DNA of 21,262 nucleotides from a virus (IMGVR_UViG_2703718838_000007); one strand, 5' to 3'. Positions 3,272 through 21,262 are shown, counted from the stretch's first letter. Notes: generated by a model not told the origin, from the sequence alone. Numbers and translations are program-made.

Positions 3272-3916
3272 TCAAATCTCTTGCATGAAGGCGACAACAG
3301 TATCGACCAGCCAGTCTAAATCCCCCTCGGTCATGCCCAGGAGTTCACGCACCGGGTAGCGTGCACGGGCACCCGGCACCACGTTATCGACTTCACCGTA
3401 CTGGTGAACGCTGGCAATTTCGGCGGTATGCCCCTGAAAGCCAACCACTGCCATGCCGCCCGTACCGTAAGCCTTAAGAAAGCGTGCGGTGCGCAGCTTG
3501 CGGAACATCGGATCCTTTCTGGTGCGGTTTTGCTTTGACTGGTTGAGATTGATTTCAATATAGCGCTGGATATCGCGCTTATAGAACGTGCGCAGGGCAC
3601 CGCGATCAACGTCATAGCCGGTGATTGCGCGGTGCTCACCCCTGCCCGTGGTTCGCCAGTTGCGTAACTCCCTGGCCTCATCATTCCATACGAATTTTAT
3701 CCCGCCCTGGGTGCGCAGAATTTTGCGGCGGCGGGCCTGATAGCTTTCACCGCTGGGGTTCTTCTGGCTGGCGATACGCTTTTGCTGGCGCTTACGCAGC
3801 CCGATCGCAACGTCGCGCGTCAGCTTGCGACGGTGTCCGGGCGAAAGCTGCGCGGCAACGCTGGCTAACCAGTCGTCTAACTGCTGGAAGAGGGGATCGG
3901 TTTGTTGTCCTGCCAT
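3272..3916 (-). CDS. S: Tail completion protein gpS-like
   Basis: 214 aa, ATG verified at 3916. Position after R matches P2. Confidence 0.75.
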   Translation of the reverse strand: MAGQQTDPLFQQLDDWLASVAAQLSPGHRRKLTRDVAIGLRKRQQKRIASQKNPSGESYQARRRKILRTQGGIKFVWNDEARELRNWRTTGRGEHRAITGYDVDRGALRTFYKRDIQRYIEINLNQSKQNRTRKDPMFRKLRTARFLKAYGTGGMAVVGFQGHTAEIASVHQYGEVDNVVPGARARYPVRELLGMTEGDLDWLVDTVVAFMQEI

Positions 3917-16977: not shown

Positions 16978-17153
16978 ATTTGAACTACATCCCCTACTTT
17001 AACGGCTTGGGCTTCCTCTTCTGATTTCTTCAGAATTGTGGTTATTGACTCCCTTCCATAAGCTGTTACTTTCGCCTCAACCAACCAATACGGCGCAATC
17101 TCGCCACGACTCACGCTTATGATTTCAACGATCCAGGCGTCTATAAGATTCAT
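16974..17153 (-). CDS. Small hypothetical protein (59 aa), not in the ORF track
   Basis: Hand-translated MNLIDAWIVEIISVSRGEIAPYWLVEAKVTAYGRESITTILKKSEEEAQAVKVGDVVQI. Its ATG overlaps the methyltransferase stop (TAATG) and its TGA overlaps the A start (ATGA). Confidence 0.5.
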   Translation of the reverse strand: MNLIDAWIVEIISVSRGEIAPYWLVEAKVTAYGRESITTILKKSEEEAQAVKVGDVVQI

Positions 17154-18124
17154 TAAAAAGCCTCCAGATCGTCAAACGTGCCCGCCGCAACCATCGCGTT
17201 GTAAGCCGCATCACCCATCACGGCGCCACAATCAGGGCAACCGCCGCCGTAACACCCGCAGCAGTCGCAGACAGGCAGCACGCCGATCACTTCTTTGGCC
17301 TTCTGGCGGTTGTCTTTGTCGGTGCTGACGGAACGTTGCACGCTGATTTCGTGCATCTTGAAGGGCTGATAAATCGCGCGGGTGGCTTCGGTGTCGCTGT
17401 TTGAAATGACGACCTTCACGCCATGCTTACGGTTAACTTCCAGCAGTGCCTGGACTAACTGGCGGTGGTTGTCTTCCGTGAATGGTTCGGTATGGTATTG
17501 GGTGAAGTCCGCTGTTTTGCTCTCAGGCAGATAAGGCGGATCGCAGTAAACGAGAACATCGCCACCCGTGACGACCTGTAAAGAACGCTGGAACGGCGCG
17601 CAAAGAAATATTGCCTTTGTATCGTTGGCCTTTTCGGCAAACAGTCGGATTTCATTTTCTGGAAAGTAGACGCTCTTATACTTGCCAAACGGCACGTTAA
17701 AGCCGGTCTTCCGACTGTATCGGCATAAGCCGTTATAACCGTGGCGATTCAGATACAGGAATTGAGCAGCGCGCATAATGCACGCCATTTCAGCGCCATA
17801 ACGCAACCCACCGCTTTTTACCGTACCCACCTGCTTATTGAACGCGGCGCGGACTTCGTTGTATCCCTGCGGGCTGTTCTTACTGTTGAACAGTTCGCGG
17901 GCCGCATCGATCACTAAGTCCGGGTAACGGGTGACTTCCCGATACAGGTTAATAAGATCCGGGTTGATATCAGCCAGCACATAGCGGCGGTATTCAGTCG
18001 CCAGAAATACCGATGCGCCGCCTACGAACGGTTCGATCAGGCAGTCGGCTTTAGGAAGATGCGGCAGCAGGTCAGGGAGGGCACGGGTTTTACCCCCTGC
18101 CCATTTGATGAACGGGCGGATCAT
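17153..18124 (-). CDS. Dam-like N6-adenine DNA methyltransferase with a Cys-rich C-terminal extension
   Basis: ATG at 18124 gives MIRPFIKWAGGK; motif I-like EPFVGGASVF and catalytic DPPY. C-terminus carries VCDCCGCYGGGCPDC. The track's longer ORF starts at an upstream non-ATG codon. Confidence 0.8.
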   Translation of the reverse strand: MIRPFIKWAGGKTRALPDLLPHLPKADCLIEPFVGGASVFLATEYRRYVLADINPDLINLYREVTRYPDLVIDAARELFNSKNSPQGYNEVRAAFNKQVGTVKSGGLRYGAEMACIMRAAQFLYLNRHGYNGLCRYSRKTGFNVPFGKYKSVYFPENEIRLFAEKANDTKAIFLCAPFQRSLQVVTGGDVLVYCDPPYLPESKTADFTQYHTEPFTEDNHRQLVQALLEVNRKHGVKVVISNSDTEATRAIYQPFKMHEISVQRSVSTDKDNRQKAKEVIGVLPVCDCCGCYGGGCPDCGAVMGDAAYNAMVAAGTFDDLEAF

Positions 18125-18125
18125 T

Positions 18126-18338
18126 TTACAGGACTCCGTAAGGGGAAGAAGGAACAACCGGACGCTGCAACGCCGTGGTAAGGCGCTGGCGCATGTCGTC
18201 GATAAAGCAGGAAACAGAGGGATCGTCAGAAGAAAGGGTTAACTCACCATCGCGGCGGGTTTTAATCGTCAACCCTTCATGCTCAACAGCAGGTAAGAGA
18301 ACGTGCAGGATGAAGTTATATTGATCGCGTTTAGTCAT
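18126..18338 (-). CDS. Small hypothetical early protein (70 aa from the ATG at 18338)
   Basis: ATG at 18338 preceded by TGAGG; stop one nt before the methyltransferase start. An alternative ATG at 18371 is possible. Confidence 0.4.
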   Translation of the reverse strand: MTKRDQYNFILHVLLPAVEHEGLTIKTRRDGELTLSSDDPSVSCFIDDMRQRLTTALQRPVVPSSPYGVL

Positions 18339-18369
18339 GATTCGAAGCCTCAGGATGAGTGAAAGCGCC

Positions 18370-18385
18370 ATCACTTAATTAAGTG
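18370..18385. repeat. Perfect 16-bp palindrome TCACTTAATTAAGTGA
   Basis: Read directly. Sits in an AT-rich gap between two small early ORFs, with a second TTAATTAA at 18408-18415. Confidence 0.6.
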
Positions 18386-18429
18386 ACGACAGTGAAGACT
18401 GTTTTTTAATTAATATTTAACTGGCGTTG

Positions 18430-18660
18430 TTAGCCGATTAAATCTCTCAAAGAATTAACAAGGTTAAAAAGCAATCCTTTGTTTATCTTCTTCGTATAAA
18501 CAAAGGGCTTACTCATTCCCTTAATAAATTGAACCTTGCCAGGCTCAGGTTTAAAGAATTTCCCGTCTGGTGTTTCCAGCCAGCCGCGTGAGTTTTTGAA
18601 GTGTGTAACCTGGCACCCGTGCTTAAGCAGGCTTGCCAGTGATGGGCCTTCATCGTGCAT
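18430..18660 (-). CDS. Small hypothetical early protein (76 aa)
   Basis: ATG at 18660 preceded by AAGGGGG. Translation MHDEGPSLASLLKHGCQVTHF... looks protein-like. Confidence 0.45.
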   Translation of the reverse strand: MHDEGPSLASLLKHGCQVTHFKNSRGWLETPDGKFFKPEPGKVQFIKGMSKPFVYTKKINKGLLFNLVNSLRDLIG

Positions 18661-19080: not shown

Positions 19081-19362
19081 TCAAAGACCGATCCACAACA
19101 ACCACGCGTCGCGCTGTTCTCTCGGACGGTTGTAATAGGCGTCACGCATTGCGCGGTTGAACTCAGGAATATAGATCCAGTTCTCAGCGCGGGCGCCCAG
19201 GCTTTCCGGGTTCTTCCACGGGATGATCGGCAACTTACCGTCTTCAATCATGCTCTTAACCGTGGCGGGCTTCTTACCGATCAATTCGGCAAATTTTGGG
19301 TATGGAACCGCGTCAACAGCGTGACGCACTTCAATGAACCCCTCTAACTCTTTGTCTGTCAT
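19081..19362 (-). CDS. cox: Cox-like excisionase / lytic-switch regulator
   Basis: 93 aa with PYPKFAELIGKKPATVKSMIEDGKLPII...AYYNRPREQRDAWLLWIGL, matching the pattern I recall for P2 Cox. GAGGTAA RBS. Confidence 0.8.
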   Translation of the reverse strand: MTDKELEGFIEVRHAVDAVPYPKFAELIGKKPATVKSMIEDGKLPIIPWKNPESLGARAENWIYIPEFNRAMRDAYYNRPREQRDAWLLWIGL

Positions 19363-19452
19363 AGAATTACCTCTAATTGATTGTTGCCGGGATTTTTTCT
19401 CACGCCCCGGCGCGTGTTACCCTTGTAGCTCTCACACTAATAGGGCAAAAAA

Positions 19453-19692
19453 ATGGACGAATTTAAGGGCGTTTTTCCTCTACCGATTACTGACCTTAAA
19501 GGTCTTAAATTCGACGCCAAGACAGGCGAATTACAACTCGATGTAGTGCTTCCGCACCCTGCTGGTGATATTCCTCTGCGATTGCAGTTTTCAGCAGGGG
19601 TAACACAATCACTTGCATTGAACTTAGCGAGGACACACAAATTTCTGGATGAGCAACTCGAAGGAACACCAGTGACAAACGTTCTGCAATAA
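19453..19692 (+). CDS. Hypothetical 79-aa protein in the cox-C intergenic region, co-oriented with C and int
   Basis: Protein-like translation; AT-richer than neighbours by eye; weak RBS. Competes with an antisense ORF (19505..19789) that looks less protein-like. Confidence 0.35.
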   Translation: MDEFKGVFPLPITDLKGLKFDAKTGELQLDVVLPHPAGDIPLRLQFSAGVTQSLALNLARTHKFLDEQLEGTPVTNVLQ

Positions 19693-19891
19693 CCCGCATA
19701 AATCCACGTTTTTGACTCTCCTTAATCTGGCGGGATCTCATATGTAAGGCTCCGCCCGATTCTTCCTCTCCCTCATGTTTCATAACCATTTGTGCTAATC
19801 TCCCCGTTGGCGCTAGGCGCTTATTTCGGCTTGTAACTGCTTATATTGGCGGTTGCTCATGGTAGAGATTACCACCCTTAAGGAGAATGTT

Positions 19892-20212
19892 ATGGTAGAG
19901 ATCCCTACCCCGTCAAGCAGCGTGGGTGAAAAAATCAGAGCTATCAGGGATGCGGAGGGGTTAACAAGGCAGCAATTCTTTGAATTAACAGGAATACCTG
20001 CTGGCACGCAGAAGTATTACGAGACAGGAAGAGTGGAGAGTATTGGTAGCGATATCTTGCTTAAGATCACTCAGCATTCACGTTTCGCAAAATACACGCT
20101 CTGGCTTATGACAGATAAGACCGCCCCTCAAGCTGGTCAAATCGCACCGGCCCTCGCACACATTGGGCCAGAGTCAACTGGATCAGACCGCTCCGAGAAA
20201 CAAACTGGTTAA
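19892..20212 (+). CDS. C: Immunity repressor, P2 C-like
   Basis: ATG at 19892 with AAGGAG 6 nt upstream. C-terminal region (FAKYTLWLMTDKTAPQAGQIAPALAH) resembles P2 C as I recall it. The track's upstream start at 19853 has no RBS. Confidence 0.8.
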   Translation: MVEIPTPSSSVGEKIRAIRDAEGLTRQQFFELTGIPAGTQKYYETGRVESIGSDILLKITQHSRFAKYTLWLMTDKTAPQAGQIAPALAHIGPESTGSDRSEKQTG

Positions 20213-20281: not shown

Positions 20282-21262
20282 ATGTCGATTAAGAAGCTCG
20301 AAGGTGGTCAATATGAAGTGGACGTATGGCCGCGCGGACGTAACGGAAAACGTATCCGCAGGCGATTTGAGAAGAAACAAGAGGCAGTTCTTTTTGAGCG
20401 TTATGTATTAGCCAACGCCGACAAAAAAGAATGGCTGGGCGCGAGCGTTGACCGCCGCACCTTAAGCGAGTTGTTAGATACCTGGTGGCTGCTGTATGGA
20501 CAGACTCAGGAAAATGGCGAGATTGAAAAGCGGCACCTGAATAAAACAATCAGGGCGCTGGGTGATCCAGCCGTTAACCGACTGAACAAACGAATGATTG
20601 CACAGCACCGAAGCCAACGGCTGGAAGACGGTATCAGCGCAGCAACGATCAACCGGGATATTTACCGTTTGTCCGGGATGTTCAGCACGTTGATAAAGCT
20701 GGAAGAGTTCAGAAAGGAAAACCCCTGCAAGGGTCTGGAACCACTGAAAGAAGCGCCGCCAGCTATGACCTATCTCGCCAAATCAGAGATCAGCAGATTG
20801 CTGGATACTCTGACTGGCGATGATCGACGCGTAGCACTGCTATGCCTCAGCACTGGCGCTCGTTGGGGTGAAGGCAGCACACTGCGAGGTGAGCAGGTTA
20901 ACCACGGGCGCGTAACGTTCCTTAAGACCAAAAACGGGAAAAAGCGTACGGTTCCGATTTCGGAAGAACTGGAAAAAGAGATCAAGACCAGCGACACCGG
21001 GCCACTGTTCAAAGTTGACTATGAAAACTTCTGCGAACAGCTCAGACAGGTTAAGCCCGATTTACCACGCGGGCAGGCCACGCACGTGCTTCGGCATACG
21101 TTCGCAAGCTGGTTCATGATGAACGGTGGGAACATTATTGCGTTACAGCAAATTCTTGGGCACGCCAGCATACAACAGACGATGGTTTATGCTCACCTTG
21201 CACCTGATTACCTGCAACACGCAGTAACGTTAAACCCTCTCGGCGGTGGTCTGGCGGTGTGA
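20282..21262 (+). CDS. int: Tyrosine integrase, P2 Int-like
   Basis: 326 aa, GGAGGG RBS. C-terminal HVLRHTFAS...MVYAHLAP contains the His/Arg/Tyr catalytic pattern of tyrosine recombinases. Stop is the last codon of the window. Confidence 0.9.
   Translation: MSIKKLEGGQYEVDVWPRGRNGKRIRRRFEKKQEAVLFERYVLANADKKEWLGASVDRRTLSELLDTWWLLYGQTQENGEIEKRHLNKTIRALGDPAVNRLNKRMIAQHRSQRLEDGISAATINRDIYRLSGMFSTLIKLEEFRKENPCKGLEPLKEAPPAMTYLAKSEISRLLDTLTGDDRRVALLCLSTGARWGEGSTLRGEQVNHGRVTFLKTKNGKKRTVPISEELEKEIKTSDTGPLFKVDYENFCEQLRQVKPDLPRGQATHVLRHTFASWFMMNGGNIIALQQILGHASIQQTMVYAHLAPDYLQHAVTLNPLGGGLAV

What the first reader, a model, noticed from the sequence alone, without database searches (positions are those of the whole stretch)
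19363..19891. Unusually long cox-C switch region containing a 79-aa ORF co-oriented with C and int
In P2 the cox and C start codons are, as far as I recall, only about 100 bp apart; here about 530 bp separate them. The gap holds a protein-like 79-aa ORF (19453-19692) with visibly lower GC than its neighbours. If transcribed with C it would be expressed in the lysogen, the usual profile of a moron such as a superinfection-exclusion or host-modifying factor.
Basis: partly seen in the sequence, partly recalled or inferred. Interest (0 to 1): 0.55.

Follow-up and report, generated by a model that had tools for sequence, protein, structure and literature searches.

The report
sieB-type moron cassette in P2-like switch
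The extra 440 bp between the cox and C genes of this P2-like prophage is an inserted accessory-gene cassette: a real but uncharacterised 79-residue protein gene preceded by the same conserved hairpin element that precedes the superinfection-exclusion gene sieB in phages lambda and P22.

Summary
Positions 19363-19800 replace 9 bp of the normal switch. The 91 bp next to C, where the two switch promoters are predicted, are intact.

ORF79 (19453-19692, +) is a real gene. Its 79-80-aa homologues keep the frame and show dN/dS of 0.09-0.5 in most pairs. They lie beside repressor genes in lambdoid and 186-like prophages. The antisense 94-aa ORF is not conserved.

The new point is the 42 bp upstream (19382-19423). 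This hairpin plus a TGnTAnnnT motif scores E = 2e-8 against a model built without the window. It also sits upstream of sieB in lambda, P22 and Rac. On the other strand it is the 3' stem-loop of the P22 antisense RNA sas. It precedes more than 50 different cargo ORFs in viral contigs.

In 8 of 19 related prophages the cox-C gap is long; 7 of the 8 carry the element next to cox, with other cargo.

Expression in the lysogen, antisense silencing from Pe and the protein's function are inferred, not shown. The protein matches no known family. Its predicted fold resembles COMM domains only weakly.

The parts
19081..19362 (-). cox, the first conserved gene of the early (Pe) operon
   Evidence: Pfam Phage_Cox 2.1e-23; phrog_272 7.9e-39. 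The Cox proteins of L013 and L014, which carry different cargo, are 100% identical to it.
19363..19800 (.). 438-bp insert that replaces 9 bp (GTGTCATAA) of the standard 100-bp cox-C switch region
   Evidence: Alignment with E. coli MS 57-2: homology breaks exactly at the cox ATG and resumes at 19801. Only 6 of 5426 complete E. coli genomes carry it.
19369..19374 (-). replacement ribosome-binding site for cox (AGAGGT on the - strand), supplied by the insert
   Evidence: Read from the sequence. The ancestral site GGGGA now lies at about 19800-19805, in front of the relic ORF.
19382..19423 (+). conserved sieB/sas-type element. Hairpin H1 is 19386-19391 paired with 19406-19411. Alternative hairpin H2 is 19401-19405 paired with 19412-19416. 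It ends in the extended -10-like TGtTACCCT (19415-19423).
   Evidence: Covariance model R1, built without the window: 32.8 bits, E = 2e-8. Same element upstream of sieB in P22, lambda and Rac. Compensatory changes in both hairpins. TGnTAnnnT at a fixed offset in 51 of 92 contexts.
19363..19460 (-). predicted sas-like antisense segment of the Pe transcript. It is complementary to the ORF79 start, ribosome-binding site and leader, and ends in the H1 hairpin.
   Evidence: Its fold has two stem-loops, and the 3' one is H1. The P22 sas reads start opposite the sieB ATG and end 17 nt past the homologous hairpin (PMC13397905). Transcription here is inferred.
19453..19692 (+). ORF79: acidic, soluble 79-aa protein with a predicted beta-beta-beta-helix fold. 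Ribosome-binding site AGGG at 19442-19445.
   Evidence: Homologues of 79-81 aa and the family profile. dN/dS 0.09-0.5 in most pairs. AF2 pLDDT 78.
19729..19756 (+). weak terminator-like hairpin after ORF79 (GGCGGG...CTCCGCC, then CGATTCTTCC)
   Evidence: Fold. A similarly placed hairpin follows the cargo in L013 and L014 and passes the terminator scan there. It does not pass the scan in the window.
19505..19789 (-). 94-aa antisense ORF, a relic. Its start and first 7 codons (MVMKHEG) match the start of the 158-aa early gene of phage SEN5. It uses the ancestral cox ribosome-binding site.
   Evidence: Homology to SEN5 covers window 19765-19959. ORF translations. The frame is not open in the lambdoid homologues.
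19801..19891 (.). intact P2-type switch. Predicted Pc -10 is TATATT at 19842-19847 (+). Predicted Pe is TTGACG-18-TAACAT at 19916-19887 (-). The first of two 19-nt direct repeats (putative C operators) is 19859-19877; the second, 19892-19910, lies just past this feature in the start of C.
   Evidence: 98-99% identical to prophages without the insert. Promoter scan. Repeats. Promoter and operator roles are inferred from consensus and from the P2 model.
19892..20212 (+). C immunity repressor, P2 type
   Evidence: phrog_147 1.8e-37. 57% identical to P2 C and 60% to Wphi C.
20282..21262 (+). integrase
   Evidence: ORF; annotated as phage integrase in L001 and L002.

Best explanation
Positions 19363-19800 are a moron cassette inserted into the P2-type developmental switch. 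It sits between the face-to-face promoters Pe and Pc (kept in 19801-19891) and the cox start codon.

The cassette has three parts:
1. A portable 5' module (19382-19423). It is a GC-rich hairpin followed by an extended -10-like TGtTACCCT, with the ATG 29 nt further on.
2. ORF79, a small acidic cytoplasmic protein.
3. A weak hairpin terminator.

The 5' module is the same element that precedes sieB in lambda, P22 and Rac, and dozens of unrelated cargo genes.

Inferred mechanism:
- In the lysogen, C represses Pe. ORF79 is then transcribed from its own weak promoter towards C and int, and some transcripts may read through into them.
- When Pe fires, on induction or infection, the early transcript must cross the whole cassette in antisense before it reaches cox.
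- That transcript contains a sas-like segment, complementary to the ORF79 ribosome-binding site and start codon and ending in the conserved hairpin. Convergent transcription and RNA pairing would shut ORF79 off during the phage's own lytic growth.

Such self-silencing is what P22 uses for the abortive-infection gene sieB. I therefore think ORF79 is most likely a prophage-expressed factor acting against superinfecting phages, or otherwise harmful to lytic growth. Its nearly invariant C-terminal helix and tail would contact a conserved target. Its fast-evolving N-terminal sheet would set specificity or oligomerisation.

Shown: the insertion, the coding status of ORF79, the homology of the element, and its association with many cargo genes.
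Inferred: promoter activity, antisense control, and the protein's function.
For: Insertion:
- Homology with prophages of the same immunity breaks exactly at the cox ATG and at 19801.
- The insert is rare: 6 of 5426 E. coli genomes.
- L013 and L014 have 100% identical Cox but different cargo.

Hotspot:
- The cox-C gap is at least 537 bp in 8 of 19 related prophages and in phage SEN5.
- The element lies next to cox in 7 of these 8. L015 has three copies.

Coding status of ORF79:
- 79-80-aa homologues.
- L008 against L010: 20 synonymous and 9 non-synonymous changes, omega 0.09. Window against L004: omega 0.28.
- Distant 72-96-aa relatives found by profile search.

Context of the homologues:
- They lie just downstream of cI-like repressors, opposite to the left-operon genes, in lambdoid prophages.
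- One lies between repressor and int in a 186-like prophage.

The element:
- R1 hit of 32.8 bits, E = 2e-8.
- Identity with the region upstream of sieB in P22 and lambda.
- It coincides with the 3' hairpin of the sas RNA reads (PMC13397905).
- Compensatory pairs.
- 121 copies in front of more than 50 distinct ORFs, including SieB-family proteins.
- Fixed geometry of TGnTAnnnT and the ATG.
- The antisense segment folds into two stem-loops, as sas folds into three.
Against: - No expression data of any kind exist for this locus.
- The generic promoter scan finds nothing upstream of ORF79. TACCCT is a poor -10 and there is no good -35.
- The hairpin could matter on only one strand, or act mainly as a recombination anchor.
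- ORF79 has no hit in PADLOC, Pfam, PHROGs or NCBIfam. It has no membrane segment, unlike SieB. It has no internal in-frame start equivalent to esc.
- dN/dS near 1 in the N-terminal half between some lineages could mean relaxed constraint rather than an arms race.
- The sequences used for the pair counts were partly selected with patterns that fix the stem.
Confidence: 0.6

Rival explanations
1. ORF79 has no promoter of its own. It is a passive passenger or a decaying remnant. The conserved hairpin works only at the DNA level, as a shared boundary sequence where homologous recombination swaps cargo between phages. It may also work only on the - strand, as an RNA hairpin that stabilises or processes the early transcript in front of cox or ral.
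For: - Homology between the window and L013 runs through cox and the hairpin, and stops at about 19420, just before the cargo.
- The hairpin always lies 24-40 nt upstream of the next early gene on the other strand: cox here, orf28/ral in lambda.
- The promoter scan finds no consensus promoter in the window, lambda or P22.
Against: - ORF79 and its homologues are under purifying selection.
- TGnTAnnnT sits at a fixed offset and the ATG 29-35 nt downstream, in front of unrelated ORFs. This is hard to explain without a transcription and translation signal.
- sieB in P22 is a prophage-expressed gene (PMC10883804).
Confidence: 0.15
2. ORF79 is expressed in the lysogen, but it is a regulator of the prophage's own lysis-lysogeny decision rather than an anti-phage or host-modifying factor. 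It might modulate C, Cox or Int. Alternatively its promoter might act mainly by reading through into C and int and by colliding with Pe.
For: - The cassette lies inside the switch, convergent with Pe and co-directional with C and int.
- Only a weak hairpin separates ORF79 from Pc and C.
- All homologues lie next to repressor genes.
- The predicted fold resembles dimerising COMM domains, which suits a protein-binding modulator.
Against: - The same protein family occurs beside unrelated repressors (lambda cI-like with an S24 peptidase domain, short HTH repressors, P2 C). A specific partner among the phage regulators is therefore unlikely.
- Prophages with the same immunity manage without it.
- The slot holds many unrelated cargo genes.
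Confidence: 0.15
3. The functional gene in the gap is the 94-aa ORF on the - strand (19505-19789). It would be translated from the Pe transcript using the ancestral cox ribosome-binding site, and ORF79 would be its mirror image.
For: It begins at the conserved site GGGGAG-N10-ATG and shares its first seven codons with the 158-aa early gene of phage SEN5.
Against: - Beyond codon 7 it has no homologue.
- The corresponding frame is interrupted in the lambdoid copies of the ORF79 region: longest open stretches of 40-72 codons.
- It has no family hits.
- Selection acts on the + frame.
Confidence: 0.05

Closest known systems
sieB-esc-sas module of phages P22 and lambda (superinfection exclusion B with its antisense RNA; Ranade and Poteete 1993, cited from PMC7067206, PMC12197685 and PMC13397905)
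   Same: - It has the same conserved hairpin element upstream of the gene.
- The gene lies antisense inside an early lytic operon, next to the immunity region.
- The opposite strand gives an RNA complementary to the leader and start codon that ends in that hairpin.
   Different: - The cargo is unrelated. ORF79 is a soluble 79-aa protein, not a roughly 190-aa SieB membrane protein (PF14163), and it has no internal esc start.
- The leader is the short type: one hairpin, with the ATG 41 nt after it. The two-hairpin sieB leader has the ATG about 81 nt after the first hairpin in P22.
- The host operon is the P2 Pe-cox operon, which has no N-type antitermination.
P2 developmental switch (C, Cox, face-to-face promoters Pe and Pc) and its Wphi variant
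   Same: - The C repressor is 57-60% identical to P2 C and Wphi C.
- A Cox-family protein is present, and the gene order is cox, then C, then int.
- A 91-bp core carries two direct repeats and convergent promoter-like sites.
   Different: - cox is separated from the core by 438 extra bp, so the early leader grows from about 90 nt to about 520 nt.
- cox uses a new ribosome-binding site.
- The repeat spacing is 33 bp.
Classical morons and P2 accessory loci (old, tin, Z/fun; defence hotspots of P2-like phages in PMC9122126 and PMC13586616)
   Same: It is an autonomous small transcription unit of lower GC. It is present or absent among otherwise similar phages, and it sits in a recurrent variable site.
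   Different: - The site is different. The described P2 hotspots lie between gpA and gpQ, downstream of gpL, and near att. PMC13586616 mentions only a broad 'integrase to primase' interval holding 8% of systems.
- The cargo here matches no known defence protein.
COMM domain (COMMD proteins) and PUR/Whirly-type small beta-alpha folds
   Different: There is no sequence similarity, and the Foldseek E-values are not significant. The model is only moderately confident (pLDDT 78, from 6 sequences). The resemblance is a lead to oligomerisation, not to function.

Membership tests
P2-type (Peduoviridae) C/Cox switch | Cox-family excisionase/repressor encoded divergently from the repressor gene | tested here: met
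   Pfam Phage_Cox 2.1e-23 and phrog_272 7.9e-39 for 19081-19362 (-).
P2-type (Peduoviridae) C/Cox switch | Short P2-type C repressor followed by int on the same strand | tested here: met
   106 aa; phrog_147 1.8e-37; 57% identical to P2 C. int is at 20282-21262.
P2-type (Peduoviridae) C/Cox switch | Face-to-face promoters Pe and Pc, with direct-repeat C operators at Pe | tested here: inconclusive
   One consensus match on the - strand (TTGACG-18-TAACAT, 19916-19887) and a TATATT on the + strand. Two 19-nt direct repeats lie 33 bp apart. There are no binding or start-site data.
P2-type (Peduoviridae) C/Cox switch | Compact cox-C intergenic region of about 100-140 bp | tested here: not met
   529 bp here, against 100 bp and 136 bp.
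Moron (autonomous accessory transcription unit in a prophage) | Present or absent among otherwise near-identical phages, with deviating base composition | tested here: met
   Absent from MS 57-2 and phiT5282H, which have the same immunity. 45% GC against 49-53% in the neighbours.
Moron (autonomous accessory transcription unit in a prophage) | Own promoter and own terminator | tested here: inconclusive
   A conserved TGnTAnnnT lies at a fixed distance from the hairpin and the ATG, but there is no hit in the generic promoter scan. The downstream hairpin is weak and fails the terminator scan in the window.
Moron (autonomous accessory transcription unit in a prophage) | Expressed from the repressed prophage | not testable with these tools
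   Needs RNA-seq or a reporter assay in a lysogen.
sieB/sas-type cassette | Conserved hairpin element upstream of the gene, equal to the 3' stem-loop of sas on the other strand | tested here: met
   R1 hit at 19382-19423, 32.8 bits, E = 2e-8. P22 scores 52.6 bits and lambda 50.7 bits. The sas reads end 17 nt past the hairpin.
sieB/sas-type cassette | Gene oriented against an early lytic operon that transcribes across it | tested here: met
   ORF79 is on the + strand, between the predicted Pe and cox on the - strand. The position of Pe is itself inferred.
sieB/sas-type cassette | Product belongs to the SieB protein family (PF14163), with an internal Esc start | tested here: not met
   ORF79 has no Pfam hit. 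It has no internal Met and no hydrophobic segment (sequence).
sieB/sas-type cassette | An antisense RNA is made and switches translation | not testable with these tools
   Only the complementarity and the fold could be examined.
Known anti-phage defence proteins (PADLOC-DB) | Match to a defence-system profile | tested here: not met
   0 families at E up to 1 for ORF79, P0003 and P0005.
COMM-domain fold | Significant structural match with the beta-beta-beta-alpha topology | tested here: inconclusive

The most novel reading that the evidence does not exclude
The 40-nt hairpin plus -10 element may be a portable, two-faced 'moron driver' shared by unrelated temperate phage lineages (lambdoid, P22-like, Rac, P2-like).

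- On one strand it would promote lysogen expression of whatever cargo follows it.
- On the other strand it would form the 3' hairpin of a sas-like antisense RNA, which silences that cargo when the early lytic operon fires.
- As a conserved boundary it would let cargo genes be swapped by homologous recombination.

Together these would amount to an integron-like cassette system without an integrase. In P2-like phages it would create a previously undescribed cargo hotspot inside the cox-C switch, holding arrays of up to three cassettes. ORF79 would be one of many uncharacterised small exclusion or counter-defence proteins carried by the system.
Probability: 0.35. Interest if true: 0.7.

Novelty: new variant of a known kind. 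Interest (0 to 1): 0.55.

Why it matters
- A handle on unknown prophage genes. The conserved element is not in Rfam. It carried no annotation under any listed match in complete E. coli genomes. Yet it marks more than 50 different cargo ORFs, most of them small proteins of unknown function. sieB is an exclusion gene with antisense self-control. The element could therefore serve as a search flag for new phage-exclusion or counter-defence genes.

- A cargo site inside the P2 switch. The best-studied P2-type genetic switch tolerates 0.4-2 kb of cargo between its promoters and cox, and recurrently acquires it. This changes the length and antisense content of the early leader. It may couple accessory-gene expression to the lysis-lysogeny decision.

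- The ORF79 family itself. It is rare: about five clusters at 90% identity among 5.8 billion sequences. It has an invariant C-terminal helix and tail, and a fast-evolving N-terminal half. That pattern is worth a direct phenotype test.

Tried and rejected
- Family searches. Pfam, PHROGs, NCBIfam and PADLOC gave nothing for ORF79 or its homologues.
- Rfam. No hit in the gap, nor at the sieB regions of P22 and lambda.
- The 78-aa cargo family. It occupies the same slot in L013, L023 and L015. It shares the 5'UTR motif with an ORF79 homologue (L011) and resembles distant ORF79 relatives (P0009, P0011, P0017) in its C-terminal ...RH tail. I tested whether it is a distant relative of ORF79. hhalign gave probability 0.1%, so I rejected this.
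- Flanking homology. I looked for DNA homology between the window cassette and the lambdoid copies beyond the ORF. BLAST found only the 3' half of the ORF, ending at the stop codon. The upstream element was recognised only by eye and then confirmed with the covariance model.
- sigma-54, sigma-E and sigma-32 readings of the motif after the hairpin. By eye the spacings did not fit, so I dropped them.
- An H-type pseudoknot of H1 and H2. With no linker nucleotides the geometry is impossible, so I treat them as alternative structures.
- Intrinsic terminator role for H1 on the - strand. No U-tract follows it, and cox lies downstream of it.
- KilS sRNA of Rac as the sas equivalent. It lies about 60 nt beyond the element and is a separate RNA.
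- The original sas paper (PubMed id 8339929) is not held in the library.

Full report
**1. The observation**

The right end of the window is the lysogeny end of a P2-like prophage.
- cox is 19081-19362 on the - strand (Pfam Phage_Cox 2.1e-23; phrog_272).
- The immunity repressor C is 19892-20212 on the + strand (phrog_147 1.8e-37). It is 57% identical to P2 C and 60% to Wphi C.
- int is 20282-21262.

The two start codons are 529 bp apart. The gap is 100 bp in E. coli MS 57-2 and in Enterobacter phage phiT5282H. MS 57-2 encodes the same C protein accession as insert-bearing L001 (WP_000229411.1), and the phiT5282H C is 99% identical to the window's. In a P2 record the gap is 136 bp.

ORF79 (19453-19692, +) exists as described. 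Its GC content is 45.0%, against 52.8% for cox, 49.2% for C and 53.4% for the whole window.

**2. What the extra DNA is**

Alignment with the insert-free relative shows two sharp breakpoints. Homology runs through cox up to its ATG (19362) and resumes at 19801. In between, 438 bp replace the 9 bp GTGTCATAA.

The 91 bp next to C are 98-99% identical to the standard switch. They contain:
- the only consensus promoter match of the region, on the - strand (TTGACG-18-TAACAT, 19916-19887);
- a TATATT on the + strand (19842-19847);
- the first of two 19-nt direct repeats spaced 33 bp apart, at 19859-19877; the second, at 19892-19910, overlaps the C start.

By analogy with P2 (established knowledge), these are Pe, Pc and the C operators. 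That assignment is inference.

Two consequences follow:
- The insert lies behind Pc and inside the leader of the Pe-cox transcript.
- cox has lost its ancestral ribosome-binding site (GGGGA, now at about 19800-19805). It uses a new one supplied by the insert (AGAGGT, + strand 19369-19374).

The insert is rare. It is present in 6 of 5426 complete E. coli genomes and in a Citrobacter freundii protein record.

**3. ORF79 is a real gene**

A search of 5.8 billion protein clusters finds only five relatives. All are 79-80 aa and 52-99% identical over the full-length alignment. A profile search of 1.84 billion representatives adds seven distant small proteins of 72-96 aa with the same pattern.

Codon-level comparison shows an excess of synonymous change:
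- L008 against L010: 20 synonymous and 9 non-synonymous differences, omega 0.09.
- Window against the Salmonella copy: omega 0.28.
- The single length difference is one in-frame codon.

The 94-aa ORF on the opposite strand (19505-19789) is not open in the homologues. Its first seven codons and its ribosome-binding site are homologous to the start of a 158-aa early gene of phage SEN5. It is therefore a relic of a previous occupant of the site.

The C-terminal 28 residues of ORF79 are almost invariant and also conserved at the nucleotide level (dS about 0.2). The N-terminal half is fast-evolving: dS 0.8-1.7, with omega up to about 1 between some lineages.

**4. Where the homologues live**

- In Salmonella, Lelliottia and metagenomic lambdoid prophages, the gene sits immediately downstream of the cI-like repressor. 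It is on the strand opposite to both the repressor and the left-operon genes (kilR, gam). This is the part of the genome where lambda carries rexAB and sieB, and it is visibly variable between otherwise similar prophages.
- A distant relative lies between the repressor and int of a 186-like prophage.

The family is thus consistently part of lysogeny modules, in three different phage architectures.

**5. The conserved element**

Directly next to the cox ATG, every insert-bearing P2-like locus has the same sequence. The window copy reads GCCGGGATTTTTTCTCACGCCCCGGCGCGTGTTACCCT. The lambdoid copies of the ORF79 gene have a variant, GCCTGTCTTTTTcCCACaTCAGGCTCGGTGGTATCCT.

- **Distribution.** Exact-pattern scans of IMG/VR found 58 and 63 contigs with the two variants. 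They lie in front of more than 50 different first ORFs. These include SieB-family proteins (PF14163), a GhoS-like protein, 155-159-aa two-helix membrane proteins, the ECs1072 family, and many 55-97-aa orphans. Of the 58 copies of the first variant, 18 abut a Cox gene.
- **Membership of the window copy.** A covariance model built from 33 of these sequences, excluding the window and the P2-like genome loci, hits the window once. The hit is at 19382-19423, with 32.8 bits and E = 2e-8.
- **In related prophages.** It hits next to cox in 7 of the 8 related prophages with a long gap.
- **At sieB.** It also hits upstream of sieB in P22 (52.6 bits), lambda (50.7 bits) and, more weakly, Rac of E. coli K-12.
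- **Link to sas.** Small-RNA sequencing of P22 infection (PMC13397905, Table 2) gives the antisense RNA sas as a 127-nt species. It starts opposite the sieB ATG and ends 17 nt past this hairpin. On the opposite strand, therefore, the element is the 3' stem-loop of sas.
- **Curation.** Rfam has no family for it. No annotated feature lay under any of the listed matches in complete E. coli genomes.

**6. Structure and signals of the element**

The stem H1 (19386-19391 with 19406-19411) is paired in 99.6% of cells. Two positions change on both sides: G-C to U-A in 12 sequences and G-C to A-U in one. Rac adds a G-C to C-G variant.

An overlapping alternative stem H2 (CCACGC with GCGTGG; window 19401-19405 with 19412-19416) shows C-G to U-A in six sequences. 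Some of these sequences were collected with patterns that fix the stem, so the percentage is biased upward. The double-sided changes are still informative.

Three or four nucleotides after the hairpin, 51 of 92 distinct contexts carry TGnTAnnnT, the form of an extended -10. The chance expectation is below 1% per site. In 43 of the 50 with a called ORF, the start codon lies 29-35 nt further on. The window has TGtTACCCT at 19415-19423 and its ATG 29 nt later.

A second class, which includes sieB, has an extra covarying hairpin and a TAAACT-type hexamer about 40 nt before the ATG.

I read the element as a portable promoter and leader on the cargo strand, and as an antisense-RNA hairpin on the other strand. 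The generic promoter scanner does not call it in the window, lambda or P22. Promoter activity therefore remains inferred.

**7. The cox-C gap is a recurrent cargo site**

I retrieved 28 genomes with the C protein as query. In 19 of them both cox and C could be placed. Eleven have gaps of 97-170 bp and eight have gaps of 537-2082 bp. Phage SEN5 has 884 bp.

The cargo differs between loci:
- a 78-aa family in L013, L023 and L015;
- a 155-159-aa membrane protein in L014 and L021;
- 60-77-aa ORFs and a 158-aa - strand gene in SEN5 and L019.

L015 holds three copies of the element, in tandem cassettes.

L013 and L014 encode Cox proteins 100% identical to the window's, yet carry different cargo. The cargo is therefore swapped on a nearly constant backbone. 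Homology between the window and L013 ends right after the hairpin (about 19420) and resumes at 19787, so the conserved ends act as exchange boundaries. A weak hairpin after ORF79 (19729-19756) has a counterpart after the cargo in L013 and L014 that passes the terminator scan.

Published surveys of P2-like defence hotspots name other sites. They mention only a broad integrase-to-primase interval (PMC13586616).

**8. Most likely mechanism**

Shown:
- the cassette is inserted between the switch core and cox;
- ORF79 is coding;
- the upstream element is homologous to the sieB/sas element;
- the element is associated with many cargo genes.

Inferred:
- With Pe repressed by C, ORF79 is transcribed from its own weak promoter towards C and int. 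Read-through is possible, because the terminator is weak.
- When Pe fires, RNA polymerase must cross the cassette in antisense to reach cox. The resulting RNA is complementary to the ORF79 leader, ribosome-binding site and start, and folds into two stem-loops, the 3' one being H1.
- This parallels sas, which switches off SieB synthesis for the benefit of the phage itself (PMC7067206, PMC12197685).

Built-in self-silencing makes sense for genes that harm lytic growth. I therefore favour an exclusion or abortive-infection type function for ORF79, at modest confidence. The invariant C-terminal helix and tail would be the target-binding part.

Rivals:
- the element is only a recombination boundary or an early-mRNA hairpin;
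- ORF79 regulates the prophage's own switch;
- the antisense ORF is the real gene, which is the least likely.

**9. Verdict**

Co-transcription with C from Pc is not the best model.

The gene is a new member of an uncharacterised small family. The cassette architecture is a new variant of a known kind: a sieB/sas-type module in a P2-type switch, at a cargo hotspot not described in the surveys read here.

Interest is moderate. There is no new principle yet. There is, however, an unannotated and widely distributed control element that flags many unknown prophage genes and gives directly testable predictions.

Noticed in passing
window 19505-19789 (-) and 19769-19800: The 94-aa antisense ORF starts with MVMKHEG, as does the 158-aa early gene of Salmonella phage SEN5. 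It sits behind the ancestral cox ribosome-binding site. It looks like a relic of a previous cargo gene, but it could still be translated from the Pe transcript.
   Followed up: partly
window 19401-19416; alignment A4: A second hairpin (CCACGC with GCGTGG) overlaps the first and cannot form at the same time. It has its own compensatory change, C-G to U-A, in six sequences. The two may be alternative RNA conformations, or each may be used on a different strand.
   Followed up: partly
window 19453-19692 compared with L004, L008, L010 and L011: The last 28 codons of ORF79 are 85-90% identical at the DNA level to lambdoid copies (dS about 0.2), while the first 52 codons are saturated (dS 0.8-1.7). 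DNA homology stops exactly at the stop codon. This could be a mosaic junction inside the gene or an extra nucleotide-level constraint.
   Followed up: partly
L015:918-3001 (Trabulsiella guamensis prophage): This 2082-bp cox-C gap has three copies of the element (938, 1491 and 2444), each followed by its own ORF. It is a tandem array of cassettes.
   Followed up: partly
L167:2562-2606 and 2406-2503 (E. coli K-12 Rac prophage): Rac sieB is preceded by a stem variant of the element (GCCCGG with CCGGGC). The annotated sRNA KilS lies about 60 nt beyond it on the other strand, between the element and kilR. No paper on KilS was found in the library.
   Followed up: partly
window 3339-3381 (-): This is a weak second match to the element model (12.7 bits, E = 0.038), inside a 214-aa ORF of the structural region. 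It is probably chance.
   Followed up: no
window 18126-18430, compared with L001 and L002 1100-2070: Between fil and dam the window has an 82-aa ORF and a stretch of 35% GC. The E. coli relatives carry TerB-family and DUF3927 genes there instead. This is a second variable spot in the early operon.
   Followed up: no
L001 and L002 273-1100, against window 17153-18157: The Dam methylase gene is annotated as an incomplete pseudogene in both E. coli relatives. In the window it is an intact 334-aa ORF, with TTG as the first possible start.
   Followed up: no
L034:2357-2974 (Xenorhabdus yunnanensis): This long cox-C gap has no copy of the element. It contains a second C-like HTH ORF of 110 aa instead. 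This may be a repressor duplication or a misplaced C start.
   Followed up: no
L013, L023 and L011 5'UTRs: The leader CACACAACCA(A)GAAAGGA is shared by an ORF79-family gene (L011) and the unrelated 78-aa cargo family (L013, L023). The exchange boundary can therefore lie at the start codon itself.
   Followed up: no
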